64,000 nt of DNA from a virus. This document shows positions 18,703-34,900 of the stretch, piece by piece; the first letter of the stretch is position 1; each line of letters starts with the position of its first letter. The stretch covers positions 15,957 to 79,956 of the IMG/VR virus record IMGVR_UViG_3300006749_000012. One strand, given 5' to 3'. Position numbers and translations under genes: made by a program. The notes under the pieces are model-generated. The model did not search any database and was not told where the DNA came from. It saw only the letters and a program-made list of their open reading frames with translations.

Positions 18703-20415
18703 ATGCCAGCAGTATTTTCACCCGGCGAGGCTGAAACTAGACCTCTTGACCCGGAAGAAATAGTATACACGACAGGAGATAAAGTTGCAGAACTGTTGGG
18801 GATTGCTGCTGGTGAGCCTGTGTTGGCCGCTGCTAATTCTTCAACTAGTGGCTTTTTCATCACTGGAACAGATTTGAGAGAGCACGGTTTTGAAAGCGGG
18901 GATTCTATATTCGTATTCAGTGACCTATATCCTCTTGGTGAAACCTTTACGATAGGCACTCCGGTAGTAGAAGATGTAAGTGGAACTAAGTATGTCAAAT
19001 TACCAGTTACTCTTGACTCAGGAGCAGCAGGCACTAATGATGCGTTCGCTAGTTACACTACTGCTGCTAACACCGAAATCCAAAACAAAACTATCTTCAC
19101 TAATGGCAAAAAGCGAGGAGTAACCAAAGATATTGTCAACAAACATATTCGTAGAATACAAGACAGAATCGACAACTACACTCATAACGCTTGGCGACCT
19201 TATCTCGTTAGTGCGGAATACATCAACTTCGATACATACAAGCCATACAGGAGAAGATACTATACTGATTACGTGGGCACTACTCCTTTGTTATTTAGAA
19301 ACATCCAGCAAATACTGAGGTTAGAGATATGGCAAGGAGACAGTTATCGTGAATTAGCCGGAGCGGAGGCTAGAGTAGAAATTTTAGATGCCAAAGGATT
19401 AGCAGGCGGTGCTCTTTTTCTTTCTCCGGGCGCTAAAGGATGGGCTAAAGCGGCAGAAGGAAGCGGCTCCCAACAATGGGAGTCAGACTTTAACGAAGTT
19501 GCTACTGCTCAAAACATTGCAGATTTGATTAACAAAGAAGATAGGGTAGGGAGAGGCACGATTACATTTACTCAGAATACAGATAGTCCTAGTGGGACTA
19601 CTTACACTCAGCCCGGAGCATCAGGTGATGTCAGTGTATTTGTGCACAATGAGTTTTTAGCCACCGCTAATTCAGATTACGGTAATGGTAAAATCAAAAT
19701 TACTAGCATGCAACAGACACAAGGTGGGCAGAGTGCTACTATTGCTAGTAACAACATTAAGATAATGCCCATAACTAATACAGAATCAGTGACCAAAAGT
19801 GGAACATTAGATTTGACTGGCGGAGATGGAAATTACTCTATCACGTTTGCAGATTCCTCTGATTTTGCAGACTATGGTATAGTTATGGTGCCTAATAATT
19901 CAGGAGACGAATTAGGGATTATAGGCTATACTGCTAATACCGGAACTGTTTTGCAAAATGGTCGCAGGCTGCATGGTAGTTTACCCGGTTCAGTTACTAA
20001 GGACATAACTCAGCACAAATTTAAATTAGATTTGAGAGGGACAGATACAACCACAGTAGTGGATGCAGTTAGTGGAGAAACCACAGAAGAAGGTGTATCC
20101 ACTGGTGACCAAGCAAGGCTTAGAGACTGGTGGCTTGACCATGAAATGGGAATAATTTATTTCAATAACTCTTATCCTTTCTTTGAGTATAACGCTGTCA
20201 AGGTCTCTTATATCTATGGAGAGCGCTATCTTGAAAAGGCCATAGAGGAAGCAGCCACTAAACTAGTAGCAAGTGAATTGTTAATGTCGGATGACCGTAG
20301 TGTATTGATACCCGAAGGGACGCAGAACATTGACCTCGGCTCTAAGGCACAACTGTTCCGTAGAGAAGCCATGGACATCCTTGCTCGTTACAAAGAAGTG
20401 GTGGTGTTTTCTTAA
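18703..20415 (+). CDS. Head-tail adaptor (gp6/gp15-like) with large inserted domains
   Basis: Adaptor-like segments IRRIQDRIDNYT and LDHEMGIIYF...VKVSYIYG...IEEAATKLVASELL...DILARYK, separated by beta-rich inserts; 570 aa. Confidence 0.7.
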   Translation: MPAVFSPGEAETRPLDPEEIVYTTGDKVAELLGIAAGEPVLAAANSSTSGFFITGTDLREHGFESGDSIFVFSDLYPLGETFTIGTPVVEDVSGTKYVKLPVTLDSGAAGTNDAFASYTTAANTEIQNKTIFTNGKKRGVTKDIVNKHIRRIQDRIDNYTHNAWRPYLVSAEYINFDTYKPYRRRYYTDYVGTTPLLFRNIQQILRLEIWQGDSYRELAGAEARVEILDAKGLAGGALFLSPGAKGWAKAAEGSGSQQWESDFNEVATAQNIADLINKEDRVGRGTITFTQNTDSPSGTTYTQPGASGDVSVFVHNEFLATANSDYGNGKIKITSMQQTQGGQSATIASNNIKIMPITNTESVTKSGTLDLTGGDGNYSITFADSSDFADYGIVMVPNNSGDELGIIGYTANTGTVLQNGRRLHGSLPGSVTKDITQHKFKLDLRGTDTTTVVDAVSGETTEEGVSTGDQARLRDWWLDHEMGIIYFNNSYPFFEYNAVKVSYIYGERYLEKAIEEAATKLVASELLMSDDRSVLIPEGTQNIDLGSKAQLFRREAMDILARYKEVVVFS

Positions 20416-20888
20416 TGGTGGCAACCTACAAAGAACCGCTCAATACTGTCATCGATTTGCTTACTGCTAACTTTGACAACTCTACTAATACGGGTTGGAA
20501 CAGAGCCAACACAGAGAACATTAAGCCAATAATCCTTGATATTGCCAGTGATGGGCCGGAAAGGGGTAAGCGTTTAGATTTACAACGTCACGATTACATA
20601 CTGTGTTATGAGACAGCATTAAATGAAGAAGTGCCGGACTTACTATACAATTTTGTAACTACTAGAGTAAACATCACAGTGGACATGAGGACTATGAGAG
20701 GGCGCACTCGTTTGCGTAAAATGGAAGATGAGATGCGTCGTATAATCCATGTGTCGAGAAAGGGAGATGGTGTGAACTTTGACCGTATGATTGTGAAGAC
20801 TAGAACTGACTTGAGTGATAGGACAAAGAAACTTTTCCGTCATACTTTCCAAGTTGAAGTGGTAATACTAGCGGAGGCGATACCATGA
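20415..20888 (+). CDS. Putative tail terminator/completion protein
   Basis: 157 aa between adaptor and tube; pattern VNITVDMRT...helix...FRHTFQVEVV. Confidence 0.6.
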   Translation: MVATYKEPLNTVIDLLTANFDNSTNTGWNRANTENIKPIILDIASDGPERGKRLDLQRHDYILCYETALNEEVPDLLYNFVTTRVNITVDMRTMRGRTRLRKMEDEMRRIIHVSRKGDGVNFDRMIVKTRTDLSDRTKKLFRHTFQVEVVILAEAIP

Positions 20889-22969
20889 GTTTTGGCGCTC
20901 ATTACAAGGGTGACGTATCCGAAGTCACCATGGGTCATGAGACTGGCTTGTTAATTGAGCATGACCAACCAAGGACTTTTACTGCGGTATCTGCTACTGA
21001 CCACACTAAAATAGAGTTCAGAGGCGTTACCAACGTAGGCAATACGAGTATATTTGAAGCCGCTAAGCCGATACTAAAAGTTCCACTAGGTATGCTGATA
21101 GGTCAAAAGATGACCTTTCATTCTACTGCGACAGGAACTAATGCATTTTCTAGTTATTATAACGACTCATTCAAAAGTAGAGTCTACACCATTGTAGACC
21201 ACACATTAGAAAACAACACAGATGGCTCACCTACGGCTGCTACAATAATAAAGATAGTTCCTGCGTTGAGGTTTCCAGCAGGCACTACTTCGATAAGTAG
21301 TGGCACAGGTGATGCTATATTCTTACATTCGCTAGGTCTACCCACTGTTCAAGGAGATAATAATTTTGCAATGAATACTGCGGCATCTTCATCCAAAGAA
21401 ACTAGCATGATTGACCAATTCATAGGACTTGCCAGTTTCATGACATTACCTGACACTACCGTAGATTTGCACAGTTATCATGTTGTAGGATTAGGTAGGC
21501 AAGTGGCTGTTCAGCAAACTGGTAAAGTCCATCACATGGGAGGCTCTTTGGAATTACCATTACACAGTCCTAAGTGGTTATTTTACAGTCTAGGCAGAGA
21601 GGTGGTAAGTAAAGATAAGTGTGGTGCGTTAGCGCATTCTTCTAGCCCAGTGCCTACTATATTCGCTAATGTTGCACCCGGCCAAGGGTTTATCGACGTA
21701 ACTAGCAGTCAAAGCGCTAGCGTTAGATTTGGTTCAGGAACTGATGCGGCAGTAGGTGATTACTTACTTATCAAAGATACTACACTTGTTCCTACAACTA
21801 CATACAAAACTCCACAAAAAAGCACCGATAAATATTGGCCTCCTGAATCTTCAGGTTCTAATTTAGGCAGTGACAGCCATCACTTTGAGTGGTCAGAAAG
21901 CAGTGAGTGCAGGCGAATAAGTGCAATCGAAGGATTAGGAAGTAGTCGATTTCGATTGTATGTAGATGGCCCTTGGCAGTTCCAACATACAACCGGTGAC
22001 ACTCTTGAATTGAGACAATACCACGACTCTAATACCAACGGTAGCCCTAACGTCAATACTACACGCACAATCACTAACCCGATACATAGGTTGCTTTTCT
22101 CTGCTGAAACTATACCTAGTTTCTCCATAGAGCACAGTATAAGAAATCGAGACTTGGGCTCATTCAATGCAACTAGTGAATCTACGGTAGCACCCGGCAA
22201 TTCAGGCGACAGTAAACAACTTACTCGTATCTTCAAAGGTTGTAAAGTAGTTGAGTGGGAATTGTCATCGACAGTAGATGCTGAATTGAAATACAGATGT
22301 GTGTTTGATGCACTTGCTTGTTATACAGACACTGGCAGATTGGAGTCTAGTAGCAAAGGAGACAGATACACTGCACATCGTATGTTCCAAAACACTGCTG
22401 ATACTTTGAAGGGTAGAAAGGCTAGTGGGATAGCGGATAAATCAGAAAAGCCTTTTATGTTTTACAACGGAACTATACAGGCGTTTGACCAAAATCTAGC
22501 ATTCGTCACGGCGTTTGAATTAAGAGGTAAGACTGGTGTAGAGTTATTCCATACCATACAAAGCAATCCTGTCGCAGAGTCAGTTGATTCATCGACTAAT
22601 CTCAGCCTAAAACAAATACCTTACGGGGGAACTCGCAATGCTAGTATAGTCAGAGAAGGTAGGGAAGATTTTGAAATGGAAATAACATTGGCCTTAGAGG
22701 ACCAAACTCTATTCCACGAATTAAGAACTCACATACAAAGAAGCGGCACTGTCAATGCACAAGGTGGTGTCATCATGTTACACTTTACCAAGCCAGTAAC
22801 TACTGGAGATTCCGGCACCACTCCTAGTCTGAGGGTAATGGTTGATGATTATTTCATAACCGAGTTACCCATACCTATGCCTGATGACAAAGGTCTGCTG
22901 TTTACTACCATGAAGATAAAGCCTCAAAACATTAAAGTGATAAGTGAGGATACGGAGTATCATTGTTAG
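20885..22969 (+). CDS. Putative tail tube (major tail) protein with accessory insertions
   Basis: Position before the chaperones; tube-like strands (GGSLELP, PSFSIEH, FKGCKVVEWELS, EGREDFEMEIT); 694 aa implies inserted domains. Confidence 0.65.
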   Translation: MSFGAHYKGDVSEVTMGHETGLLIEHDQPRTFTAVSATDHTKIEFRGVTNVGNTSIFEAAKPILKVPLGMLIGQKMTFHSTATGTNAFSSYYNDSFKSRVYTIVDHTLENNTDGSPTAATIIKIVPALRFPAGTTSISSGTGDAIFLHSLGLPTVQGDNNFAMNTAASSSKETSMIDQFIGLASFMTLPDTTVDLHSYHVVGLGRQVAVQQTGKVHHMGGSLELPLHSPKWLFYSLGREVVSKDKCGALAHSSSPVPTIFANVAPGQGFIDVTSSQSASVRFGSGTDAAVGDYLLIKDTTLVPTTTYKTPQKSTDKYWPPESSGSNLGSDSHHFEWSESSECRRISAIEGLGSSRFRLYVDGPWQFQHTTGDTLELRQYHDSNTNGSPNVNTTRTITNPIHRLLFSAETIPSFSIEHSIRNRDLGSFNATSESTVAPGNSGDSKQLTRIFKGCKVVEWELSSTVDAELKYRCVFDALACYTDTGRLESSSKGDRYTAHRMFQNTADTLKGRKASGIADKSEKPFMFYNGTIQAFDQNLAFVTAFELRGKTGVELFHTIQSNPVAESVDSSTNLSLKQIPYGGTRNASIVREGREDFEMEITLALEDQTLFHELRTHIQRSGTVNAQGGVIMLHFTKPVTTGDSGTTPSLRVMVDDYFITELPIPMPDDKGLLFTTMKIKPQNIKVISEDTEYHC

Positions 22970-22979
22970 GGGGAGTTTT

Positions 22980-23198
22980 ATGCCAATGAGAACATGGATT
23001 TCTTTAACCCCTGATTGCTATTATGCTATTCCTATCAATGACGAAGAAGAAGAAGGAGGAGAATACCTCTTTGACCCGGAAGCAGGGAGAGCCAGCGATG
23101 ACCCGTTCGCTCACCTGAAAGCGGAGGAGTCCCCCGATAATTCGGCGGATTCCGGTAAGGAAGTGAGTAAGTATGTCGGAGGAACAGAAGAAGAATAA
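22980..23198 (+). CDS. Small acidic hypothetical protein
   Basis: ATG 22980 after GGGGAG; Glu/Asp-rich; the ORF track begins at 22944. Confidence 0.5.
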   Translation: MPMRTWISLTPDCYYAIPINDEEEEGGEYLFDPEAGRASDDPFAHLKAEESPDNSADSGKEVSKYVGGTEEE

Positions 23199-23538
23199 AA
23201 TAGAAATAAATGGCCTACCTTTTGAAATTACAGCGAAACGCTTGACATTCTTTGATATTCAAGCAGTAGCGCCGTTACTTATGGATGGGACTATGGACTT
23301 TTCTCGATACTGGCGACATGCTTTCAATAACTGGCTAATCTATGACGATTACTTCGACATGGAAAGTTTGACTCCCGAAGAAGGTAACGCATTGGCTGCT
23401 TTACTCCCTGACCCTAGCACAGTGATGGAGTGGTTGGTTTTTCGGGAAGCGAAGTCGGTAACATCAAACAGTTCATTCACGGACGATTCGTCAATGACAG
23501 GCTTCGCTACCAAAGGGAAGGAACAGAATATCTCTTGA
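23173..23538 (+). CDS. Tail assembly chaperone (gpG-like)
   Basis: Position after the tube gene; contains slippery G GTT TTT at 23436-23442 leading into an overlapping -1 frame ORF. Confidence 0.7.
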   Translation: MSEEQKKNKIEINGLPFEITAKRLTFFDIQAVAPLLMDGTMDFSRYWRHAFNNWLIYDDYFDMESLTPEEGNALAALLPDPSTVMEWLVFREAKSVTSNSSFTDDSSMTGFATKGKEQNIS

Positions 23539-23702
23539 TGACACACTATAATATGGGGCTGAAAGAAGTGAGGGGACTAAGTGTGGACGATGCTAAGCAA
23601 TTGATGCACTGGGCACAGGCGATGCATGGTGAAGAAAAATTACCTGATAACGCAGTTTATTTGGGCTATGACGTAGTGCCACCAGTGGAGGAAATAGCAT
23701 GA
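23430..23702 (+). CDS. Tail assembly chaperone extension (gpT-like, probably expressed by frameshift)
   Basis: Overlaps the previous ORF by ~110 nt in the -1 frame; THYNMGLKEVRGLSVDDAKQLMHW resembles GT C-termini. Confidence 0.7.
   Translation: MVGFSGSEVGNIKQFIHGRFVNDRLRYQREGTEYLLMTHYNMGLKEVRGLSVDDAKQLMHWAQAMHGEEKLPDNAVYLGYDVVPPVEEIA
23436..23442 (+). promoter_or_regulatory. Putative -1 ribosomal frameshift slippery site (G GTT TTT)
   Basis: Frame 0 reads V-F-R; the -1 frame continues F-S-G-S-E-V... to the stop at 23702. Confidence 0.7.
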
Positions 23703-23893
23703 CTGTCGTAAGGTGTCTACTTTGTAATAGTGAAGAATTAGAAAACGATACTGTAATTATGCAAGGTAAATGGAGCAGGTTGGTTAATTATGCAAACAAA
23801 AGATATAGTGCTATCAGTTGTAAAAATTGCGGATACACTATGTTATTCAAAGAAGGTGCTAAATTTAGTATACTTGAGGCTATGGTAGGGTGA
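23699..23893 (+). CDS. Zinc-ribbon protein (resembles COG3478/DUF2082 type)
   Basis: CLLC...SCKNCGYTMLF; ATGA overlap with the upstream stop. Confidence 0.7.
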   Translation: MTVVRCLLCNSEELENDTVIMQGKWSRLVNYANKRYSAISCKNCGYTMLFKEGAKFSILEAMVG

Positions 23894-23897
23894 ACAT

Positions 23898-24377
23898 ATG
23901 GTAGAAGGAGATATTGACCCACGTTCCGTCGAGGCTATGGATAAGTTCAAAGATTACAGTAAGGCTGCTAAAGAGAATATGGAAGCACTACAACAGCAAA
24001 TGGACAAATTCACCAACTCAATGGCAATGACTAAAACTCACACTAAAGACTTGACTGCTTCTTTGAGAGACTTGAGTAATTCGGAGCCCTTTCATCATAT
24101 AGAAGAATCCATCAAAGAAGTGCAGAGTGGTTTAGAGCAGACTATGAATCGCACTCAGTCACCAGCCGGTGGCCCTGCTCGTGAAACTATGACGGCTGGC
24201 GCACAAGCGCCTAGTGTTCCTGATGTTACAGTCAATTTGCGTATAGATGTTAGTGGAGTAACTGACAAGACAGATAAAAGAAATCTAGCAAAAGAGATAG
24301 GAAATATGGTCACTAAAGAATTGAGGACTAAGATGGGCGGCTCGCTTACTCAGAGTGGGTTCAATAGGAGTGGTTAG
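23898..24377 (+). CDS. Miniature tape-measure-like protein
   Basis: Occupies the tape-measure slot; helical N-terminal half; C-terminal VTVNLRIDVSG...RNLAKEIGNMVTKEL resembles TMP C-termini; only 159 aa. Confidence 0.6.
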   Translation: MVEGDIDPRSVEAMDKFKDYSKAAKENMEALQQQMDKFTNSMAMTKTHTKDLTASLRDLSNSEPFHHIEESIKEVQSGLEQTMNRTQSPAGGPARETMTAGAQAPSVPDVTVNLRIDVSGVTDKTDKRNLAKEIGNMVTKELRTKMGGSLTQSGFNRSG

Positions 24378-26897
24378 ATGGCAGACGAAGGAGAAAGAAT
24401 GCCGGTTAGACTTGTTCAAGAGAACGGTGATACCATCTCACTTGATGCAACTAGTATCGATATAGTTGTAGAAAGACAACAGTCCAACTTCGGCATACCT
24501 TTCTTTGATGCTAGAAAAATGGCAATAGACCTTAATCAAACCCAAGTGGCAGTAGAGATAAATGGTATACTAGCAGACGAGGTAGGTCAAGAAGTAACCG
24601 CTCAAGCGACCGCTACGGTAGACCTCTATCAACCTCAACAACTTGTGAATTGGGGGCAACCAATTAACAGCGGTGGCGGAGTCAATACCGTTGCTGTATC
24701 TTCGTCTTTCAACAGCGGGTCTACTTCTACTGGTATAGGTAACACTGGCTCTTTTGGTTCTTCTTCTTCAGGATTTGGCGGCTCATTGGGCACGCCTCCG
24801 ACTGATTTCAAAGATTTAGGAAATAACATTTTACAATATTGGAATAAGCGCTACATAGATTTCCCTGTTGCTTTTTGGGTAGAAGAATCGGGCGCTTTAG
24901 GTGTCCCCGTTACAAATGGTTTACAATTGAACTTGAAGTCGGATTCGCTTGCTAGCACTTTATCTCATAATGATTTAATAAACAACTGGACAGACAGTAG
25001 TGGAAACGGTAGAAACGCTACTCAATCTAGCACAATTGCACAGCCTAGATACAAAAAGGCCTCAGAGTTTGATTCTTATATCCAGTTCGATGGAGTCAAT
25101 GACTTCTTGACTATATCTAATGAGCCTTTTCTTAACTCAGAAGAATTTACTTTGATAGTCGCTTGTAAAAATAGTCATTTCAATGGAGTTCGACCAATAA
25201 TAACATCTAGTGATGCTTCTAACAGCGGCTATGCTTTGGTGATAGATAGAGGTAATACTAAGGGTCAGTTCAAGTGGGAAGGGACTTCTTCAAATACATT
25301 AGACACCAGCGGAATATCTGTTAGACACGAGCCGCACATATTTTCTGTTGTTATGAAAGACAGTGATTCTGATGCACAGTCTGATACAGTTACTTTGTTT
25401 ATAGATGGAATTTCTACTCAAACTACTTCTACTGATTTTACACCTGAAGATAGTTCTGCATTTAACATAGGCAAAGACGCTAGTAACTTTTTCCGAGGTG
25501 CTTTGTATGAAATATTATTTTACAATAGGGCTTTGACGGACAATGAACTTCAAAGTGTAGAGGGCTATCTTTCTCGTAAACATGACATCAAAATTAGAGA
25601 AGAAGGGCATGATTATTATGAAAATAGTTCTTACAACTTTGATACCAAGCACATCAGAGTGGCTTTTGATAGTAAAATGGTGAGCAGTCAGCAAGAGCCT
25701 TACGGGTTCTTGAATCAAAAAAGAGTCATTAATGGTATGACTATTTCTTCACTGAGCACTGATAAAAAGACTATAACTGTAACAGGTGGCAATCCTCAAC
25801 AGTTTTTTGAGGTTGATGAAACCGAAAGACCTTACTTAATATCATTTCAAAGCAGCACAGGTGTTTGGCGCAAGAGCGGCGGTAGAATATACAAAGGGCA
25901 GGTTACAGCGGTAACCTCAAATACAATTTCTGTGGAATTTGTTGACCTTTATGGTAATTCTGCTGTCCATAGCGCTGGTGATAAGATATACATAATGCCC
26001 ATAGATTATGGTATAAGTCGCTTACATAGCACAGAACTGACACCCGTTATAATTCTACCAATAAAAAACGCTGATACTTTTGATGAGCAAGCCCTTCCTG
26101 AGAAAGCGGTGGGTCCTGAATTTCCCAATCACCAAGATACCAGCGGTAGAGATAGTGGTAATAATCTAACTAGAACTGATGAATATATTACCTATTTATT
26201 ATCAAAGGCGTTGACTGCCAGTTACATAGATTTGAATCGCCCGGTTGATTCAAGTGGTAACACGACGCTAAACAAAGTATTCTCGACTTCTATATCCAAT
26301 TCTTTTAGTGAGCACGCTAGTAGACTAACTATAACTCAGTTACATGCTACTTCTCTTGGTAGTTTATCTGATACTATAAACAGTGATTTAGGGTCAGGTC
26401 AATTACCTGTCATACAAGGTTTCTCAGGCGGAAGAAGCGGAAAGCGAGTCAAGAGTGGAGGAGATAAAGCACAAGACCTCATAGGTATACTTTCTAACAG
26501 TAACAACTATGCTACCAATCCTGATATGAATTTCGTAACAGACGCTTTACAAATAGGGCTCGATTTCTTATCTAATCAAATAGGTGCCGCTGACATGGGT
26601 GGTGATTTCATAAGAGGTATACAGATACCTTACAATTCATTCAATACTAAAGGTAAAAATGTATTAGACGCTGAAGTAGCCCAGCGCAATTTTTTCTTAA
26701 CAACAGAAGGTAGCACTTCAGACAAACTATCTAGTGCTAATACAGTTCATGCTTCAAGGTCTTTTGTGCATTCAGCCGAAGGTCATTTTAAAAATGGAAT
26801 AAGCGGACTGGTCACTGATTTGAGTTTGCAGCGAGACGCTGAAATGAAAGCCTACGATTTCAGTTTGAAATTCATAGCAGCGGATATAATTTTGTAA
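24378..26897 (+). CDS. Distal-tail/tube-initiator-like protein with inserted LamG (concanavalin-like) domain; paralog 1
   Basis: LamG-like stretch at ~24918-25590 (WTDSSGNG, FDGVNDFL, FRGALYEILFYNRAL); N- and C-terminal core shared with the next gene. Confidence 0.6.
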   Translation: MADEGERMPVRLVQENGDTISLDATSIDIVVERQQSNFGIPFFDARKMAIDLNQTQVAVEINGILADEVGQEVTAQATATVDLYQPQQLVNWGQPINSGGGVNTVAVSSSFNSGSTSTGIGNTGSFGSSSSGFGGSLGTPPTDFKDLGNNILQYWNKRYIDFPVAFWVEESGALGVPVTNGLQLNLKSDSLASTLSHNDLINNWTDSSGNGRNATQSSTIAQPRYKKASEFDSYIQFDGVNDFLTISNEPFLNSEEFTLIVACKNSHFNGVRPIITSSDASNSGYALVIDRGNTKGQFKWEGTSSNTLDTSGISVRHEPHIFSVVMKDSDSDAQSDTVTLFIDGISTQTTSTDFTPEDSSAFNIGKDASNFFRGALYEILFYNRALTDNELQSVEGYLSRKHDIKIREEGHDYYENSSYNFDTKHIRVAFDSKMVSSQQEPYGFLNQKRVINGMTISSLSTDKKTITVTGGNPQQFFEVDETERPYLISFQSSTGVWRKSGGRIYKGQVTAVTSNTISVEFVDLYGNSAVHSAGDKIYIMPIDYGISRLHSTELTPVIILPIKNADTFDEQALPEKAVGPEFPNHQDTSGRDSGNNLTRTDEYITYLLSKALTASYIDLNRPVDSSGNTTLNKVFSTSISNSFSEHASRLTITQLHATSLGSLSDTINSDLGSGQLPVIQGFSGGRSGKRVKSGGDKAQDLIGILSNSNNYATNPDMNFVTDALQIGLDFLSNQIGAADMGGDFIRGIQIPYNSFNTKGKNVLDAEVAQRNFFLTTEGSTSDKLSSANTVHASRSFVHSAEGHFKNGISGLVTDLSLQRDAEMKAYDFSLKFIAADIIL

Positions 26898-26906
26898 GGT
26901 GATGAA

Positions 26907-28916
26907 ATGGCTATTCCAATAAAAATCTTGGCAGGGCACGATGGTGAAATAGCAGTAGATTTAGAGGCACAAAGTATTGATATGGTGATAGACAGAAACG
27001 TATCTGCTTTCCCAACCCCTAATAATTTATTAAAACGCATAGCGATAGATACTAACATACCTAGAGTTACAATGGAAATCAATGGTATACTAACAGATGA
27101 CGAAGGTATAGATGTGACACGGGCTTCGGGCGTGGAAGATTTGGTTTCTGTAACTCCTATGAGAACTTTGATTAATTTCGGGAGCCTCATGCCCACTGAA
27201 CCTAATTCAAACTTTACACCTGTTAAAAGAGCGCTTGGGATGAAACGACCAGTTTCCGATACGCTTGAGTTGTCTGTCCGCAATTCTCTTAGTAGAAACT
27301 CTACTAACACCGTTGAAGATTTACATATTGACCCAACTCTCGTAACGGCAGCCGGTGTTTTACAACTAGTTACTAAAATACAGACTAACTTAAAATTTAC
27401 TGGGGCTCATAGCGTAGGTGCAACCGGCGCTCTTGCAGTTAGTGCTAAAATCGTAGGAGTGTCTACTCCTGCAAATATTCTCATTAGCAAGGACGATAGG
27501 ATAGTGAAAAGTTCAGGAGAATTGATTGGCATAGTGCAATCGGTAACTAATACAACTGTTACGTTTACTGCGGGCATCGCTCACTCCATAAGTGCGAATG
27601 ACAAACTTTTCGCTAGCGCTAAGTGTTTTAATCACAGAAATGAATTTTTAGGTTATACTACTAATTTGACATTTAACACTACGGGTGCTAAGAATATAAC
27701 GTCAGTTGATTTAACACTGGATAGAAAAATAGAAAGTGACATATTGGCGGGAACTAAGTTAACTTTTAACAAAAGCAATGACTCCTTAGAAAATTTACTG
27801 CATTATAATTGTATAAAGATAATTCCTTCTTATTGGTTGGAGGACCCAAGTCGTGGCCCAACTGGTAGTGACCCACGAAGCGATGTAGCGTTTAGTAACA
27901 ATGTGTATCCTAAATACGGTATCAAGTTCATATTTGACGCTACTAAGACACCTACCATTGCCGGAGGTAGTGATACGCCCGCACTAAATACTGGCAACCA
28001 AATATTTGAAAGAACTTCTTATCATCAAGGTTATTGCACTCCACCGACTCTTGATGCTGCGTTTAGAGATTTAGAGATATTGATACCAATCAAAGGTATA
28101 ACTTCTTTGCCCGACAATCAAAGTCCGGCTGAAGGGTTGGCCTTACTATTATCACAAGCGCTCGCTCTAACGACTACTTTTACAAAAACCGCAACGAATG
28201 ATTCGTTTACACTAAATCCAACTGACACATCTACTTTGGCGGCTACATTCAACGTGACCCGCAATAATTCTATTGTATTGATTGAGCAAACATACAAACC
28301 CCAAACACCAGTAGAGCATCCTGAAGTCTTCAATGATAGGCTAAAAGAAACTGTAAACATCCAAGCATTCAATTCTATAAGTGCATTTTCTTCTCTTGGA
28401 ACTAAGTCTGCTGGAGATAAAGCGCAGGATTTGATTGGTTTGATTTCCAACTCTAGCACTAACACAGGTGATTTATTCAAAGGTATTCAAATACCATACG
28501 ATAGTCTAATCACAAGTTCGGGAGTTACAGGGGTTGCTCGCAATTTCTTTTTGACCTTTGGAGAAATACCCGCATCAGAAAAAACTTCTTTGAGCAATAC
28601 TCGTGCAGCATCGGACACTATGTTAGGGCTGCAATTGACTGGAGATGCTGGCGGAAATAAAACTGACAGAAGCAATAATGAAAAGTCACTTTTAGAAGAA
28701 TGGTTTGGCAGTGCAGGTGAGGCAATTGAATCGTTAGTAGGCTTTGTAACAACGGCTATATCTGATATTTTTATAACACTAAAGAGTGACGCACATGGTA
28801 ATGATGGCGGAATACGCATCATACCTGAAAAACTTCATGTGCGCTATGATGCTGGGAACAACTACTACGCATACAGTTTACTTCTAGTAGCGACAGACTT
28901 TGTGATAGGTGTATGA
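26907..28916 (+). CDS. Distal-tail/tube-initiator-like protein; paralog 2
   Basis: Shares EINGIL.D, KS.GDKAQDLIG..SNS, GIQIPY.S and RNFFLT with 24378..26897. Confidence 0.6.
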   Translation: MAIPIKILAGHDGEIAVDLEAQSIDMVIDRNVSAFPTPNNLLKRIAIDTNIPRVTMEINGILTDDEGIDVTRASGVEDLVSVTPMRTLINFGSLMPTEPNSNFTPVKRALGMKRPVSDTLELSVRNSLSRNSTNTVEDLHIDPTLVTAAGVLQLVTKIQTNLKFTGAHSVGATGALAVSAKIVGVSTPANILISKDDRIVKSSGELIGIVQSVTNTTVTFTAGIAHSISANDKLFASAKCFNHRNEFLGYTTNLTFNTTGAKNITSVDLTLDRKIESDILAGTKLTFNKSNDSLENLLHYNCIKIIPSYWLEDPSRGPTGSDPRSDVAFSNNVYPKYGIKFIFDATKTPTIAGGSDTPALNTGNQIFERTSYHQGYCTPPTLDAAFRDLEILIPIKGITSLPDNQSPAEGLALLLSQALALTTTFTKTATNDSFTLNPTDTSTLAATFNVTRNNSIVLIEQTYKPQTPVEHPEVFNDRLKETVNIQAFNSISAFSSLGTKSAGDKAQDLIGLISNSSTNTGDLFKGIQIPYDSLITSSGVTGVARNFFLTFGEIPASEKTSLSNTRAASDTMLGLQLTGDAGGNKTDRSNNEKSLLEEWFGSAGEAIESLVGFVTTAISDIFITLKSDAHGNDGGIRIIPEKLHVRYDAGNNYYAYSLLLVATDFVIGV

Positions 28917-31900
28917 TATGACGCTAACGATTGACCCCGGATTTGGAATAAGATTCAACGGTATAAGCGATAGCATATTAGTTCCTGTAAACACTAAACT
29001 TATTCACGGAGTTCAAACCGAAGAACGTAGAGGATTACCTAAAGCAATAAATTCGTTTACGATAGAAAGTTGGTTTATACCGGATTGTGGAGGAGTAATA
29101 TTTGAGCAAGAAAATGTCATGCGATTGACAGTAGGTAGCCCTAGCAGCCCTGCACCCGCCACGTTTGAAGTTCGGTTAAGAAATCCCGCAAGTGGTAGAG
29201 ACGCAGTTTATACTTTATCAACTGCTAAACCAATTACCAAAGTAAATGGTAGGATTGCATATTATGAAGGTATACAGTTCCCGGTAACAGATTCTCTACA
29301 TGGTTCTTATTTAGCAACTGATGTTGATAGAAACGATGTCACTGCCTTTAATGATGGGGCTAGAGAATTGTTAAATGTGACTGTGATGTTTGATAGAAGA
29401 ACAATAAGTATGTTCGTGAATGGTGATTTAGCCGTATCTCAGGAACTAGAGGAAGAACATGAGTTAGTGACTCAACAGAATAGCATTTATCTTGGAGGTA
29501 GAGGCGGTGATTTCAGAGGAACATTAGAAGCCATACATTGGTCAAAAGGTGCGTTAACTTCAGGCTATCAACAGTATGCTCCTATGAAAAGTGACAACAC
29601 TATTGGGCTTTGGAGGTTTGAAGAACCAGTGAATCCTATAACTCTGATTACTACAACTCCTTCTATCTCTGCATCTACTTCGGCTACTTCTTCGATTAAT
29701 ATAGGGTCATCTGCGGCACAGTCTCTGATAGACGAACTCAGTGGTCAAAGTGGACTTACGTCAATTAATTTTACAGCCAGTCCTTATAGTGGAGGCAGTT
29801 ACAGCGTCAAGGTTCAATCCGCTTCTTCATCTGCTACTGTAAGTATACCAAAGGTGCCCTACAATATTTTAGTCAACCCGTTAGGGTATAGTCAAACCAC
29901 TGGTAAGCCTACTAATAAATCTCCTGAAAGACTAAGGTTGATGTCGGCAGATTCCAGTGCTGGAACTATAACGGTTGAGTCTATACACCTTGATTTTGCA
30001 TCTAACGCTAGCAACGGCAGGAGAGGTGTTTTGTCTAACCACGATGCTGGTAGATTTGTAATTATCACAGGCGATTGTATAATTGATACTGGTAACGGTA
30101 ACGAATTTCAACCTTATGGCACAGGCACACAGTTTTCTCAAAGGCAAGGTCAAGTGATTATAGATGAAAGTGACTTTGCTAATAATGGAATAATGTTTTC
30201 TCAAAGCATGGCAATAGACAGTCATGAATACAACAAATTCTCTGCAAGTTCTGCAAATATGGGCTCTCAGTTCTTAGCAGGTCATTCGGGTAGACACACT
30301 CTGAATCATGTAACTAGCCATCCGTTCATGGGCGTGTTACCGCCCACTGAGAGTCACGTAGTAGAGAAAAAGTTAGACATAGGCAGTGACGTAATATCGG
30401 CTTCATTTCCTTCACAATTTTCTGACATTAGGTCAACTGTCCCTATGAATAGTATAGTTTCCAGTTATGACACTAGCGGTAACATCAAAATCAAATCTGT
30501 AACGAACCGTGCTGAAATAACTTCGGTGGTAGAAAATGGAATGTCAGACATCGACGATACGCAAAGAGGCATTTTGGCAGTAGGTGGACTCAATTTTAAT
30601 GTAGAACCTTTCCTAATAAGGTCTTTATCTTCTAATAATGAACTTGATTCTTCTAAACATGCTATTCCTTCTACTAGAAATAGAATAGCAATACTATCTG
30701 TTCCTGATTTAGCGACTTACAATTACGCTCCGTTCGTGCAATTGCATTACAATGCAGTTGATTTAGACGGAAGTCAGTTTGGGACAGGGGCTACCTCTCG
30801 TTTAACGGCTAACATAACTGGTGGTAATACTGTTTTAACTTTACAGAGCGTTAAATCGTTTGGATTCGACGGTGAACTTATACCAGCCTCGCTGATAGAT
30901 ATAAACGGCACACCTGCTTCTAGTTTAAGCGATAACACCGCAGAAATAAATTACTCTGCAAAGACACTGACATTTTCAGCAGCGGCTGACTCTGCTTTCA
31001 ATACACTGGCTGTAAGTGGTAACATAGTCAAAAAGTCCGATACCGGGGCTAAGATTTTAGTAACTGATACGCTACCTAAAGTGAGCACGATAGTGACAGG
31101 TAGCACGTCCATACTGGACTTGATTAGAACAGCGCTAGACGCTAGCCCGTTAGAAATATTCTCTCCCGGTGCAGTTATAGAATTTGACAAACCTGAAATG
31201 TTCGGGCTTTCTGACGGTGATTTAGAAGGAGAAAGTAGCGAAGGGCAGGTAGCCGAAAGTGTCCTTAACAGAGATTTGTCACCTGAAAATTATTTACCGT
31301 TGACATCGGCTGATTCTCCACAAACTACTCCTCAAGCAATTTCGTTGGCTACTTCGGAATTAGTCGAAAGAGGCTCGGTCCTCAATAGAATTTTAATTAG
31401 GAGCCATAAGACTAGCATAGGTAACTTTGAAGAAAACGCAGGTATTACACTCCAAAAGTCTACTAATGGTATAAGACCTAGAAGTGGTGTAAAGTTGAAT
31501 AATGGCTCAGGATATGCGGCTTCTACCACTGGCGCTATGACAGTCGACGGAATAGACGCTACTGCGGTAATCAATGTAGGAAGTTCTATCTTCAAAGCAA
31601 ATGGTAAAAACTTAGGAACTGTAACTGCGGTTACAAGCACTTCTGTTACTGTGGGAGCAGGAACCTCTGACGCTTTAGTAGATGATGAAGAAATATTCAC
31701 ACAGCCTCAAATGGTAGGTAAAGGAACTATAAATCAAAGCAGTTGTGTCCATGAATATTTTGACATAATCGAACACAATAGCAATGAGAAAAAGGTCAAG
31801 TTAATTATACAACCTAGCGATAATAATCGCTTTAATTTAGGTAGAAGGTTATCAGCATCTGCTAGTTTTGCTAATCGTATAAGTATAGAGAACTTAGTCT

Positions 31901-34900
31901 CTCGTGGCAGAATTGTTTCTTTCGCTAATGGCGACGAGGGTAGCACCATTATGAGAGCACACGGAGTTATAGGCGACTTGGCATCATCCAGTGTTTATGT
32001 AAAGGGCTCTGCTTCGCCCGACTCCCATATCGTGAAAGAAATAATGCCGGGAGCGCCCGTAGTCACTATGACACTAGGTGGCCCCGGACAAGGTGCCGTC
32101 AATACCAAAGACACTTGGACTCCAAGTCCGTTATCTAGGATGGCTTGGAATACTCGTAGAGATTGTCAGACTCGTGTAGAATTTACAACCAGCACTACAA
32201 TAACAGTTGCACCGCTGAACAATCAATCTACTGATTTGCAATCTTGGGGCACATATTGTTTTCCTAAAGAAGGTAGGGTGTATTTAGAAATAGAGGGCAA
32301 TCAAGGTGAACAAAGGCGGTTTGCAAGTGCCGCTTATGCCAGTAAAACAGGTGATGTTTTTACTTTCACATCTAGCCCCCCGTTAGGAAGTGGCACTCTT
32401 ATAGCGGCTGATGGTAGTGAAGTAGATACATTTGCCAACTGGATAACATCTACCGGTATAACCGCAGGTAGCGTATTGCACGTTGATGACAAATTCGGAG
32501 AAGAATCGATGTGCAATGACGGCACTACTATCAATGACAGGTTGTTTCAAACACTTGATACTGTTCAACACGACTACCAATTAGGAACGCAGTATGCAAG
32601 CACTCGTGCTTTAGTAGAGATACCACTGTTCAACGATTTCTTTTTCGATAACCCTGATAAAGGTATTTTCCCCGGCCCTAATAACAGTATGAAATTACAC
32701 GTAGACGCTACGCAAACAGCACATTCTTGGAGCCCTAATCCTGTCGGGAGAAGGCCCGAATCTATATCACCACAGGACCCTGAAGTGTTTAGTGCGTTTT
32801 CATTCACTATACAAAACGAAACTCATCGCACAGGGACAAAAGTAACTCAACCTTACGATTCAAGTAACAACCGAATATATGTAGAAGATATAGGTATATT
32901 CCCGAAGGCTTCTGCTCCTCCCATAACAGTGGCTAGTTTAGGAGGCTCTGCTAGATACAGAAGGGCTTTCTTAGGTAACGGAGAGTGGGTAGTTTACGAC
33001 GGTCTACACACCGACGGTTACTTAGATTTGGCAGGTTCTTCATCTAGTGGATATATAGCCAGTGCTAATTTCTTCCGTGATTTAAAAGTAGGCGCTCATC
33101 TATTCCCAGCACCGGGGTATCAAGACATGAGTTATTCAGGTATTGCTGATAACCCCTCTCTAATTAGCGCTGGTTATGAAAATAGACGTTCGTTTTACTT
33201 TGACCGTTCTAATGTAATGACCCAAGGTGGTAATACTGATTACGGGTTAAAGCAATATGTTAGTGCAATAGAACTGAGAGCCGGGCCAACAATAAACCCA
33301 CATCTACCTAAGATTATCAGTAAGCGACCAAGAGCGAAGGTGATTTCTGTAACCGGAAGCCCTGCAACTTCTTTGACATTAGACGATGCTAGTTTGTTTC
33401 CAATAAGTTCACCTGACTCGGATTACAAATTCAGAGTAGCATTTAGGAATGCAAGTGGCATTGTCAATCGTGGATTTTACGATAACAGGGTAAATAGCGT
33501 GCTCACCATAGTTAGCCCTGATAGTGGTTTCACTCCATCTGTTGGAGATGAGATATATGTCGAAGATTTACATGCCACTGCTTCAGCCACCTATCCTAAA
33601 GTGAAAGAGACTTTCTTGAATAGAGCATGGTCACATCCTTATTGCAACGGTGGTCTGAGACAAGGTGATACAATTTGGATGAACATGCATTACACTAACC
33701 CTCATGCTATAGAAGGCTTGTTTTGCAAAAGTAGAGGCACACTAAACGAGGCTGAAGTAGTCGATGTGTTCAATGGCGGAGAGGGCTCTTTTGACGTTAG
33801 TCCAAGAAATAGTATACCTATGGAAAATTTCTTGATAGGTAATACTTGTATAGAAACGGCTCAGAACCTGATGCAACATATAAACAAAACAGTATCGTTA
33901 AATTATGATGCGATTGGTTTGACAGAAACTCCTCCAACAATCGCTTACTTAGACCCTTACCAGTGCACTGAAAATTTTGCTAGAGTTTTATTATACGATG
34001 TAGAGCATGACCGTGAGTTCATTGCATTCCAAGATATACACATGCAAGTTCAATCTAGTCCAGCAGCGGCTAGTATTGGTAAAGAAGATACTGGCAAAAC
34101 TGGCTTTGTTAACAATTCAGTTACAGGTTCAGGCTCTTTGTTAGATGTAGCGGCAGGTTTCCCTACTGAAAACAAAAGGCTCAACATTACTGAGAAATCA
34201 GATTTCATAGAGGCATCTTACGCTCACAAGTCTACTTGGAACTCAAACGTGCCGAATGTAAACTTAGAGCATGTTGTAGGAGGAGTTGACAATACTGCTA
34301 CTAATGGTTACACAGACCGCACTAACAACGCTGTCACTCTAAGTGGCAGTGCCTTGACTAAGCATCAAGAGATAGATTCATCAAGTCGAGAACAGTCTAC
34401 GTTCTTTGATACACCTGACGGAACTAGAGTTATACCTGCATTCTTAGCAATGAAAGGTATAAGGAACAGTAAATTGACTTTAGATGATACTAGACTGAAC
34501 AACCTTGACCAATGGACAGATATGGATTTCGTTAGAAGGTTGACGATTGATATGGGGGAAGTCCGCCTCAAAGATGGAGTTACCAACATAGAGTCAGCCG
34601 CTAGAGAAGTAGTAAGAATGATTAATCAAGCGGGTGCTAAAAACGGTAAGACTCATGCCAAAAAACCTGCTGACCAATATTTAGGTAGAAGTGATAACTT
34701 TGACCCCTCCTCTCCTCATAAAAATTCAGACTTTGCTGCCACAGCATCTACACACGACCCCTCCCCATTTTGGGATGTGAAGAAAGCATTCTCTAGCCAT
34801 GACAGAGGCACTCACATGGGCTACGTCCGTGCTCACCTTGGTAGAGTGGTAAAGGATGAAGAAGGCGTAGAAGAAGGATTCTCTATTGTAATACACTCTA

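What the first reader, a model, noticed from the sequence alone, without database searches (positions are those of the whole stretch)
23898..24377. 159-aa tape measure: a siphovirus-type tail module predicting a stub tail
Seen: the order terminator - tube - G/GT chaperones - TMP slot - distal tail is intact and no sheath gene is evident. The TMP-slot protein is only 159 aa with no hydrophobic membrane segment. Established: tail length scales at about 0.15 nm per TMP residue, and the Rhodobacter gene transfer agent combines a short TMP with a short tail and a large baseplate protein. Inference: a tail of at most ~20-25 nm (a few rings) under a very large baseplate, intermediate between sipho- and podovirus morphology.
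Basis: partly seen in the sequence, partly recalled or inferred. Interest (0 to 1): 0.72.

Follow-up and report, generated by a model that had tools for sequence, protein, structure and literature searches.

The report
Miniature tape measure in a magrovirus
An abundant lineage of marine archaeal viruses (group-A magroviruses) keeps the full gene kit for a long non-contractile tail, but its tail ruler protein has shrunk to 135-160 residues, which predicts a tail of only a few tube rings; no particle has yet been seen.

Summary
Observation confirmed. The ORF at 23898-24377 is a real 159-aa gene. It is present at 135-160 aa in 54 distinct orthologues from about 95 viral contigs. Contigs from four sequencing runs cover it without any indel.

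The window is a group-A magrovirus, a virus of Poseidoniales archaea. The gene order is adaptor, terminator-like, tube, a G/T chaperone pair with a conserved -1 slip site, then this gene, then two paralogous distal-tail-like proteins and a 5,236-aa protein. No sheath was found.

The last ~45 residues are homologous to the extreme C-terminus of genuine tape-measure proteins (hhalign 98.9%, E 1e-17). Those proteins are 200-600 aa, hydrophobic and aromatic-repeat rich, and match PHROG tape-measure families. Sister lineages with the same gene order carry 328-434-aa tape measures in the same slot. The nearest cultured relative, HVTV-1, has a 480-aa tape measure and a 73-nm tail.

No second tape measure was found in this record or in four relatives at least 90% complete.

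The predicted tail of roughly 15-25 nm (3-6 ring layers) is an inference. No micrograph exists. This scan reached the same conclusion earlier on other magrovirus genomes (e1-5324846). I found no paper that describes it.

The parts
18703..20415 (+). p570: head-to-tail adaptor with large inserted surface domains; not a sheath
   Evidence: - The AF2 model (pLDDT 66) has an N+C-terminal core that matches adaptor or neck proteins: P74-26 neck Z 10.1, Mu neck 5ydn Z 9.0, JBD30 8rka_B Z 8.4, HK97 gp6 3jvo Z 7.0.
- The insert at 220-360 matches only the outer domain of sheath proteins (8kee_A residues 93-192, Z 11).
- tblastn: residues 141-226 and 458-566 match HVTV-1 gene 125 (226 aa), E 4e-6 and 2e-9.
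- ESM Atlas lead: Phage_connect_1 / HCP.
20415..20888 (+). p157: tail-terminator-like protein, the most conserved tail gene (82% mean column identity)
   Evidence: The nearest named ESM Atlas clusters are tail-terminator families at 0.92-0.93, which is a lead only. It lies directly upstream of the tube gene. Alignment A4. No Pfam hit and no solved-structure sequence hit.
20885..22969 (+). p694: major tail tube protein with large insertions
   Evidence: - Pfam Phage_tube_2: E 6.9e-6, 26.3 bits against a cut-off of 27.
- 13 of 24 family members match it, best E 6.2e-9.
- Residues 168-244 match HVTV-1 gene 128, the gene just upstream of that virus's chaperones, E 8e-4.
22944..23198 (+). p84: small conserved protein of unknown role between the tube and chaperone genes
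   Evidence: Present in 90 loci. Sister lineages have 161-244 aa at this position. No family hit.
23173..23538 (+). G-like tail assembly chaperone (121 aa)
   Evidence: Conserved in 98 loci. There is weak colinear similarity to the annotated HVTV-1 tail assembly chaperone (hhalign E 3.4e-4, probability 38%).
23431..23445 (+). -1 programmed frameshift site, TGG TTG GTT TTT CGG
   Evidence: The motif is in frame with G in 29 of 29 loci. The most divergent loci carry a canonical A AAT TTT at the same place.
23418..23702 (+). T frame: the -1 extension that gives the GT fusion chaperone
   Evidence: - The T frame is -1 relative to G in all 30 loci checked.
- Over the 16 codons after the slip site, T is more conserved than G (0.66 against 0.53) and never contains a stop.
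- In several loci the first start codon of the T frame lies far downstream of the slip site.
23699..23893 (+). 64-aa Zn-ribbon (DUF2082) gene inserted between the chaperones and the tape measure; accessory
   Evidence: Pfam Zn_ribbon_13, E 2.9e-11. Present in only about 16 of about 105 loci.
23898..24377 (+). p159: miniature tape measure protein (the finding)
   Evidence: - Its C-terminal 43 columns align to the long tape-measure profile: hhalign 98.9%, E 1.3e-17, 56% identity.
- 130 hits among 1.8 billion representatives; the module sits at the extreme C-terminus of 200-600-aa proteins, which match PHROG tape-measure families.
- It occupies the same slot as the 328-434-aa tape measures of sister lineages.
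- AF2: helices 8-60, 64-85 and 124-145, disordered 86-120, no globular fold.
24378..26897 (+). p839: distal-tail-like protein with an inserted LamG lectin domain
   Evidence: Pfam Laminin_G_3 at 238-391, E 7.7e-11. Paralogue of p669: hhalign 99.9%, E 2e-37. The role is inferred from position only.
26907..28916 (+). p669: second distal-tail-like paralogue
   Evidence: Paralogy shown. Sister lineages have a single 385-450-aa homologue at this position.
28909..44619 (+). p5236: giant beta-rich protein, presumed tail tip, hub or central fibre
   Evidence: One uninterrupted ORF. No Pfam or PHROG hit. Sister lineages have a giant ORF in the same place, at least 933 to at least 2943 aa.

Best explanation
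The 159-aa protein is the tail tape measure protein (TMP) of this group-A magrovirus, reduced to a minimum.

What it keeps:
- an N-terminal helical rod (about residues 8-85);
- a variable, disordered linker (86-120);
- the conserved C-terminal strand-loop-helix module (about 108-150) that is shared with genuine long TMPs.

What it has lost is the hydrophobic, aromatic-repeat middle and the GGxV...GExGPE motif.

Proposed mechanism, inferred by analogy with lambda-type tails and RcGTA:
1. The G and GT chaperones, made through a conserved -1 frameshift, coat a TMP oligomer.
2. The C-terminal module docks in the distal-tail or hub complex (p839, p669, p5236).
3. The tube protein p694 polymerises around the TMP until it reaches the N-terminal end.
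4. The terminator-like p157 caps the tube, and the tail joins the head through the adaptor p570.

Because the ruler is so short, only a few rings can form.
- At 0.152 nm per residue (HVTV-1) the lengths are 24 nm for 159 aa and 21 nm for 136 aa.
- At the RcGTA ratio (216 aa for six layers of 3.83 nm) they are about 17 and 14.5 nm.
- That is 3-6 ring layers, including the distal-tail ring or rings.

Shown here: gene reality, conservation, synteny, the frameshift signal, C-terminal homology to TMPs, absence of another TMP and of a sheath. Inferred: oligomeric state, docking, ruler function and actual tail length.
For: - Slot and synteny. The order adaptor, terminator-like, tube, G/T, p159, distal-tail-like is kept in about 95 loci. 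The same order occurs in four sister loci whose slot holds 328-434-aa proteins with classical W/F repeats and the GExGPE motif.
- Homology. The p159 family profile finds 130 proteins. The C-terminal module lies at the very end of 200-600-aa proteins that match many PHROG 'tail length tape measure' families. hhalign A1 against A7 gives 98.9%, E 1.3e-17. The long-TMP profile aligns to the annotated HVTV-1 TMP at 96%, E 3e-9. The L110 TMP matches 121 phage records; the rows shown are nearly all annotated as tape measure.
- G/GT frameshift conserved.
- Extended helical model with no globular fold. This matches the RcGTA g11 layout of a long N-terminal helix, loops and a C-terminal helix (PMC7296036).
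- No other TMP and no sheath.
- Calibration. HVTV-1 has a tail of 73 +/- 5 nm (PMC4284463) and a 480-aa TMP.
- On a tube-protein tree rooted on the long-TMP loci, the short-TMP loci form one clade.
Against: - No particle of any magrovirus has been imaged, so the tail length is untested.
- Only the last ~45 residues are demonstrably homologous to TMPs. The N-terminal 100 residues have no significant match (E 0.88, E 0.002 in one relative).
- The direct comparison of p159 with the HVTV-1 TMP is not significant, so that link is transitive only.
- The AF2 model has low confidence (pLDDT 61).
- The roles of p839, p669 and p5236 are positional guesses.
- The record is 77% complete. This is offset by the searches in four relatives 90-100% complete.
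- The 35-residue disordered linker could span anything from 5 to 12 nm.
Confidence: 0.72

Rival explanations
1. p159 descends from a TMP but no longer acts as a ruler. It serves as a plug or needle that seals the channel and initiates assembly, like the P22 gp26 tail needle. The short tail then has a fixed architecture set by the ring proteins themselves.
For: - RcGTA g11 is described as having features of both TMPs and tail needles (PMC7296036).
- p159 has the same layout of helix, loop and C-terminal helix.
- It has lost the membrane-active hydrophobic part.
Against: - The G/GT chaperone pair, whose known job is to hold a TMP during tube polymerisation, is strictly conserved together with its frameshift signal.
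- Orthologue lengths fall into two classes that differ by about 20-24 residues, roughly one tube ring. The shorter class arose in at least four clades. That fits a ruler better than a fixed plug.
- The profile search against solved structures gave no hit to gp26.
Confidence: 0.17
2. The real ruler is another protein: an unrecognised TMP elsewhere in the genome, or a segment of p839, p669 or p5236 that runs up the tube lumen. p159 would then be a remnant.
For: - TMP middle regions diverge quickly and could escape profile searches.
- This record is only 77% complete.
- The giant 5,236-aa protein has no family hit.
Against: - The long-TMP profile and the PHROG and Pfam TMP families find nothing else in this record or in relatives 90-100% complete.
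- No other large protein checked in this block has a segment above the hydrophobicity threshold. No TMP-like repeats were seen in p5236 on reading it.
- p839 carries a lectin domain and is a paralogue of p669.
- A remnant would not stay under purifying selection in 54 distinct orthologues with 21 invariant columns.
Confidence: 0.06
3. p159 is not a virion component. It would be an assembly factor or scaffold that merely shares a short motif with TMPs.
For: Only 43-50 residues are homologous, and the protein is small and helical like many scaffolds.
Against: - The shared module lies at the extreme C-terminus in both p159 and the long TMPs.
- It is the best-conserved part of both families: 56% identity between the two profiles.
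- p159 occupies exactly the TMP slot in a module that otherwise has no TMP.
Confidence: 0.05

Closest known systems
RcGTA tape measure protein g11 (Rcc01694) of the Rhodobacter capsulatus gene transfer agent (Bardy et al. 2020, PMC7296036)
   Same: - It is a very short TMP (216 aa: a 113-residue helix, 83 residues of strands and loops, and a 20-residue C-terminal helix).
- It fills only five tube discs plus the distal tail ring.
- It sits behind a G/GT-type chaperone pair and above a large baseplate protein.
- p159 has the same predicted layout of long helix, loop and C-terminal helix.
   Different: - p159 is shorter still, at 135-160 aa.
- It belongs to an archaeal virus with a genome of about 100 kb rather than a bacterial GTA.
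- The downstream proteins are far larger (839, 669 and 5,236 aa).
Tape measure protein of Haloarcula vallismortis tailed virus 1 (HVTV1_131, 480 aa; Druskaviridae)
   Same: - HVTV-1 is the nearest cultured relative by major capsid protein (34% identity, E 5e-51).
- The order adaptor, tube, frameshifted chaperones, TMP is the same.
- Its TMP C-terminus aligns to the long-TMP profile that also contains the p159 module.
- Its non-contractile tail measures 73 +/- 5 nm.
   Different: It is three times longer and has the hydrophobic middle. Direct profile comparison with p159 is not significant.
328-434-aa tape measures of sister magrovirus-like lineages (loci L108, L109, L110, L137) and the 500-600-aa metagenomic family aligned as A7
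   Same: They share the C-terminal module I-x-V-S-G-V-T-D-R/K-x-D-K-x-x-L-A-x-E-I...E-L-R..G-G. The four sister loci also occupy the same slot between homologous chaperone and distal-tail-like genes.
   Different: They keep the W/F-periodic repeats or hydrophobic G/A-rich segments. All except L137 keep the GGxV...GExGPE motif. p159 has none of these.
Lambda gpG/gpGT-gpH tail-length system
   Same: A chaperone pair made by a -1 frameshift lies immediately upstream of the ruler gene, and the terminator and tube genes lie upstream of that.
   Different: Lambda gpH is 853 aa for a tube of about 135 nm (from my own knowledge). Here the slip site is G GTT TTT CGG, probably a P-site slip before a CGG codon, rather than a canonical X XXY YYZ heptamer. 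The most divergent relatives do carry a canonical A AAT TTT.

Membership tests
Tail tape measure protein (TMP) of long-tailed Caudoviricetes | Encoded immediately downstream of the frameshifted G/GT chaperone pair and upstream of the distal tail genes | tested here: met
   The position is conserved in about 95 loci. The -1 frame and the slip motif are conserved. A small Zn-ribbon gene intervenes in this window, but only in about 16 loci overall.
Tail tape measure protein (TMP) of long-tailed Caudoviricetes | Sequence homology to recognised TMPs | tested here: met
   Met for the C-terminal ~45 residues only. hhalign against 20 long TMPs gives 98.9%, E 1.3e-17. Those proteins match PHROG TMP families, annotated phage TMPs and the HVTV-1 TMP. 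The N-terminal 100 residues have no significant match.
Tail tape measure protein (TMP) of long-tailed Caudoviricetes | Extended, mostly alpha-helical, non-globular chain | tested here: met
   AF2 gives helices 8-60, 64-85 and 124-145, a disordered stretch at 86-120 and pTM 0.23. The model has low confidence.
Tail tape measure protein (TMP) of long-tailed Caudoviricetes | Length of several hundred to thousands of residues, with hydrophobic or aromatic-repeat segments | tested here: not met
   The protein is 159 aa (135-160 aa across the clade). Its highest hydrophobicity value is 0.50, and it has no W/F repeats. This is exactly how it departs from the family norm.
Tail tape measure protein (TMP) of long-tailed Caudoviricetes | Sits as an oligomer in the tube lumen, and its length sets the tail length | not testable with these tools
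   This needs virion structure or tail assembly experiments.
G/GT tail assembly chaperones | Two overlapping ORFs, the second in the -1 frame, joined at a conserved slippery site | tested here: met
   The -1 frame holds in 30 of 30 loci. The motif is in frame in 29 of 29. The T frame is better conserved than the G frame after the site.
G/GT tail assembly chaperones | Homology to known tail assembly chaperones | tested here: inconclusive
   hhalign to the annotated HVTV-1 chaperone gives E 3.4e-4 but only 38% probability. There is no Pfam hit.
Contractile (myovirus-type) tail | A sheath protein gene | tested here: not met
   PF04984 is absent from this record and from four relatives 90-100% complete. 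The core of p570 matches adaptors, and only a 90-residue insert resembles a sheath outer domain. The fold evidence alone would be inconclusive.
Siphovirus-type tail tube (Pfam Phage_tube_2) | A match to the tube family above its threshold | tested here: inconclusive
   The window protein scores 26.3 bits against a cut-off of 27. 13 of 24 family members match, best E 6.2e-9. There is a weak match to the gene at the tube position in HVTV-1.
Podovirus tail needle (P22 gp26-like) | Sequence or fold similarity to gp26 | tested here: inconclusive
   The profile search of solved structures did not list gp26. No trimer model could be made.

The most novel reading that the evidence does not exclude
Group-A magroviruses, among the most abundant viruses of the surface ocean, may build a morphotype not yet described. 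It would be a ruler-templated, non-contractile tail of only about 2-4 tube rings, using the shortest tape measure known. That tail would sit on a distal assembly of about 7,000 encoded residues: two paralogous distal-tail-like proteins and a 5,236-aa protein. Under the microscope such particles would be scored as short-tailed or even non-tailed. Repeated toggling of the ruler between about 159 and about 136-141 aa would add or remove roughly one ring.
Probability: 0.5. Interest if true: 0.72.

Novelty: new variant of a known kind. Interest (0 to 1): 0.6.

Why it matters
- **Unknown virions.** Magroviruses are reported to be among the most abundant marine planktonic viruses, possibly third after cyanophages and pelagiphages (PMC10160649). 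They have never been cultured or imaged. The papers I could search say only that they 'may have helical tails'. None mentions a tape measure in magroviruses.
- **A concrete prediction.** A genuine but miniature ruler gives a checkable virion shape for group A, and a longer tail of about 50-65 nm for sister lineages. This bears on how tailed and 'non-tailed' particles are counted in seawater.
- **A natural length series.** The homologous tape measures run 600, 434, 328, 195, 159 and 136 aa. The series shows which parts are dispensable (the hydrophobic middle and the GExGPE motif) and which are not (the C-terminal module). That is useful for understanding how sipho-type tails could evolve towards podo-like ones.

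Tried and rejected
**Direct searches with p159 that gave nothing useful**
- PHROGs and Pfam on p159 gave nothing significant, only weak coiled-coil noise.
- tblastn of p159 and of p694 against 50,697 phage records gave no useful match.
- Profile searches of solved structures with the p159, p839, p570, p694 and p157 families gave no informative hit, apart from the lectin domain of p839.

**Structure**
- Foldseek of the whole p570 model against PDB gave nothing at E <= 0.001. VIA-align was needed.

**Tools and look-ups that failed**
- Single-sequence locus searches with P0019 and P0027 found nothing. The alignment-based search succeeded.

**Ideas rejected**
- Translational fusion of p159 with p839. 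In this window TAG is followed directly by ATG in the same frame. In relatives, however, the relative frame is 1 in 43 loci, 2 in 41 and 0 in only 9.
- p570 as a sheath.
- p839 as the TMP. It has a lectin domain, no segment above the hydrophobicity threshold, and is a paralogue of p669.

**Other blanks**
- Pfam and PHROGs on the 5,236-aa protein and the other neighbours found nothing.
- No RNA holder was listed among the sequencing runs, so nothing can be said about expression.
- One paper search failed on a term that was too short.

Full report
**What the window is**

The minus-strand half encodes a thermosome subunit, family-B DNA polymerase, RFC-like clamp loader, primase large subunit, ERCC4 and PD-(D/E)XK nucleases. 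The plus-strand half encodes a large terminase, portal, a 2,009-aa protein with a ligase domain, an S78 prohead protease and a capsid protein. This is the published layout of magroviruses, the viruses of marine group II (Poseidoniales) archaea. The thermosome and the ligase in the structural block point to group A (PMC5434244; PMC12999244). The capsid protein's best cultured relatives are the haloarchaeal siphoviruses HVTV-1, HCTV-1 and HCTV-5, at 32-34% identity and E about 1e-50. The window is bases 15957-79956 of a 79,956-bp IMG/VR record rated 77% complete.

**The observation**

The ORF at 23898-24377 is real: ATG start, TAG stop, 159 aa, and a GGGTGA ribosome-binding motif just upstream.

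- It has no hydrophobic segment. The highest 19-residue Kyte-Doolittle mean is 0.50.
- Two scans of viral contigs returned 106 related loci. In about 95 of them the order p570-p157-p694-p84-p121-p90-p159-p839-p669 is kept.
- There are 54 distinct orthologue sequences in two length classes: 135-141 aa (33 sequences) and 154-160 aa (21 sequences).
- Contigs from four sequencing runs lie on 22900-25400 with no inserted or deleted letters and no joints. Two of the runs may be the source of this DNA. One of the other two carries a strain about 97% identical.

The short gene is therefore not an assembly collapse.

**The neighbours**

- **p694 (20885-22969)** matches Pfam Phage_tube_2 just under threshold. 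13 of 24 family members match it, with best E 6e-9. A segment also matches HVTV-1 gene 128, which lies directly upstream of that virus's chaperones.
- **p157** is nearest to tail-terminator families in the ESM Atlas. This is a lead only.
- **p570** was the only candidate for a sheath by size. Its AF2 model has an N+C-terminal core that matches head-tail adaptors: P74-26 neck Z 10.1, Mu neck Z 9.0, JBD30 connector Z 8.4, HK97 gp6 Z 7.0. Only a 90-residue insert resembles a sheath outer domain. The core also matches the 226-aa HVTV-1 gene 125.
- **Sheath.** The sheath family PF04984 is absent from this record and from four relatives 90-100% complete.
- **p121 and p90** behave as a G/T chaperone pair. 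T is in the -1 frame of G in all 30 loci examined. A motif TGG-YTN-NTT-TTT-CGG is in frame in 29 of 29 loci and becomes a canonical A-AAT-TTT in the most divergent ones. After this site the T frame is better conserved than the G frame (0.66 against 0.53) and never contains a stop.

**What the 159-aa protein is**

On its own it matches no Pfam, PHROG or solved-structure family. AF2 with 27 homologues gives an extended, low-confidence model with helices 8-60, 64-85 and 124-145 and a disordered stretch at 86-120.

A profile of the family searched against 1.8 billion representative proteins was decisive.

- Besides about 20 relatives that match more than the C-terminal module, mostly short proteins or fragments, the conserved C-terminal module matched the extreme C-terminus of roughly a hundred proteins of 200-600 aa.
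- The module in the window protein runs from NVTVNLRIDVSGVTDKTDKRNLAKEIG to KELRTKMGG.
- Those longer proteins have a coiled-coil N-terminus, many G/A-rich hydrophobic segments and a GGxV...GExGPE motif.
- They match many PHROG families named 'tail length tape measure protein'.
- Profile against profile, the match is 98.9% probable, E 1.3e-17, with 56% identity over 43 columns.
- The long-TMP profile in turn aligns with the annotated 480-aa TMP of HVTV-1 (96%, E 3e-9).

Four sister loci (L108, L109, L110, L137) have homologues of p570 (about 50% identity), p157 (60-66%), p694 (32-37%), G and T in the same order.

- In the p159 slot they carry proteins of 434, 347, 352 and 328 aa.
- These have classical Trp/Phe-periodic repeats and the same C-terminal module.
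- One of them matches tape-measure genes in 121 phage records.
- These loci have one distal-tail-like gene where the window has two paralogues (hhalign 99.9%), followed by a giant ORF, as in the window.

**Is there another ruler?**

- The long-TMP profile hits this record only at the C-terminus of p159 (E 7.5e-17).
- In five relatives 88-100% complete (four of them at 90% or more) it hits exactly once, always in a 141-169-aa frame.
- phrog_991 and PF10145 give nothing in this record. phrog_58 gives nothing in four complete relatives.
- phrog_1538 gives one weak hit inside the p159 orthologue of one relative.
- A fusion of p159 with p839 is not conserved.

**Evolution**

I built a tube-protein tree of 67 sequences and rooted it on the long-TMP loci.

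- The short-TMP loci form one clade on a long branch.
- The ~154-160-aa form is found in the earliest branches.
- The ~135-141-aa form appears in at least four separate clades (the rooting is an assumption and branch supports were not examined).
- The deletion boundaries differ slightly between clades.

The two classes differ by about 20-24 residues, or 3.0-3.6 nm at 0.15 nm per residue. That is close to one tube ring.

**How it probably works**

By analogy with lambda-type tails and with RcGTA, G and GT hold a p159 oligomer and its C-terminal module docks in the distal complex. The tube protein polymerises along it, and the terminator caps it.

| Calibration | Ratio | 159 aa | 136 aa |
|---|---|---|---|
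| HVTV-1: 73 +/- 5 nm tail, 480-aa TMP | 0.152 nm per residue | 24 nm | 21 nm |
| RcGTA: 216 aa filling five tube discs plus the distal ring at 3.83 nm pitch | about 0.106 nm per residue | 17 nm | 14.5 nm |

The prediction is 3-6 ring layers in all. None of this mechanism has been observed for this virus.

**Comparison and novelty**

The closest known case is RcGTA g11. p159 is shorter, comes from an archaeal virus, and lies upstream of much larger distal proteins. It passes the TMP tests for position, C-terminal homology and extended helical character. It fails the usual tests for length and hydrophobic repeats. I therefore file it as a new variant of a known kind.

No paper in the searchable library describes a magrovirus tape measure. 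This scan had already reached the same reading on other magrovirus genomes (e1-5324846). My tests were done before I read that note, and they agree with it.

Noticed in passing
window 23431-23445: The chaperone frameshift site is G GTT TTT CGG, not a canonical X XXY YYZ heptamer. It is probably a P-site slip on U UUU before a CGG codon. The most divergent relatives (L099, L105) carry a canonical A AAT TTT at the same position. Another magrovirus lineage was noted by this scan to use C CCT TTG.
   Followed up: partly
window 23699-23893: A 64-aa Zn-ribbon (DUF2082, Pfam Zn_ribbon_13) gene sits between the chaperones and the tape measure. It is present in only about 16 of about 105 related loci, so it looks like a sporadic insertion into an otherwise fixed module.
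   Followed up: partly
window 24378-28916: p839 and p669 are tandem paralogues (hhalign 99.9%, E 2e-37) that share N- and C-terminal blocks but have different inserts; p839 carries a LamG lectin domain. Sister lineages with longer tape measures have only one such gene (385-450 aa). The duplication therefore accompanies the shrunken ruler.
   Followed up: partly
window 18703-20415: The head-tail adaptor is 570 aa, against 226 aa for its HVTV-1 homologue. The extra length is inserted beta domains, one of which resembles the outer domain of phage sheath proteins (8kee_A residues 93-192, Z 11). This may be a collar or neck decoration.
   Followed up: partly
window 28909-44619: A single 5,236-aa ORF follows the distal-tail-like genes and has no Pfam or PHROG hit in any part. 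Sister lineages have giant ORFs at the same place (at least 2,943 aa in L110).
   Followed up: partly
window 24375-24380: The TAG stop of p159 is followed directly by the ATG of p839 in the same frame, so read-through would give a 999-aa fusion. The arrangement is not conserved: it is in frame in only 9 of 93 loci.
   Followed up: yes
window 23898-24377 and its orthologues (alignment A1): Orthologues fall into two length classes, 135-141 and 154-160 aa. They differ by loss of the second helix (about residues 64-85). The shorter class appears in at least four clades of the tube tree, with slightly different deletion boundaries.
   Followed up: partly
window 8171-14200: A 2,009-aa protein between the portal and protease genes carries a weak ATP-dependent DNA ligase domain (Pfam E 1e-4). 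This is the 'ligase in the structural module' noted by Philosof et al. 2017.
   Followed up: no
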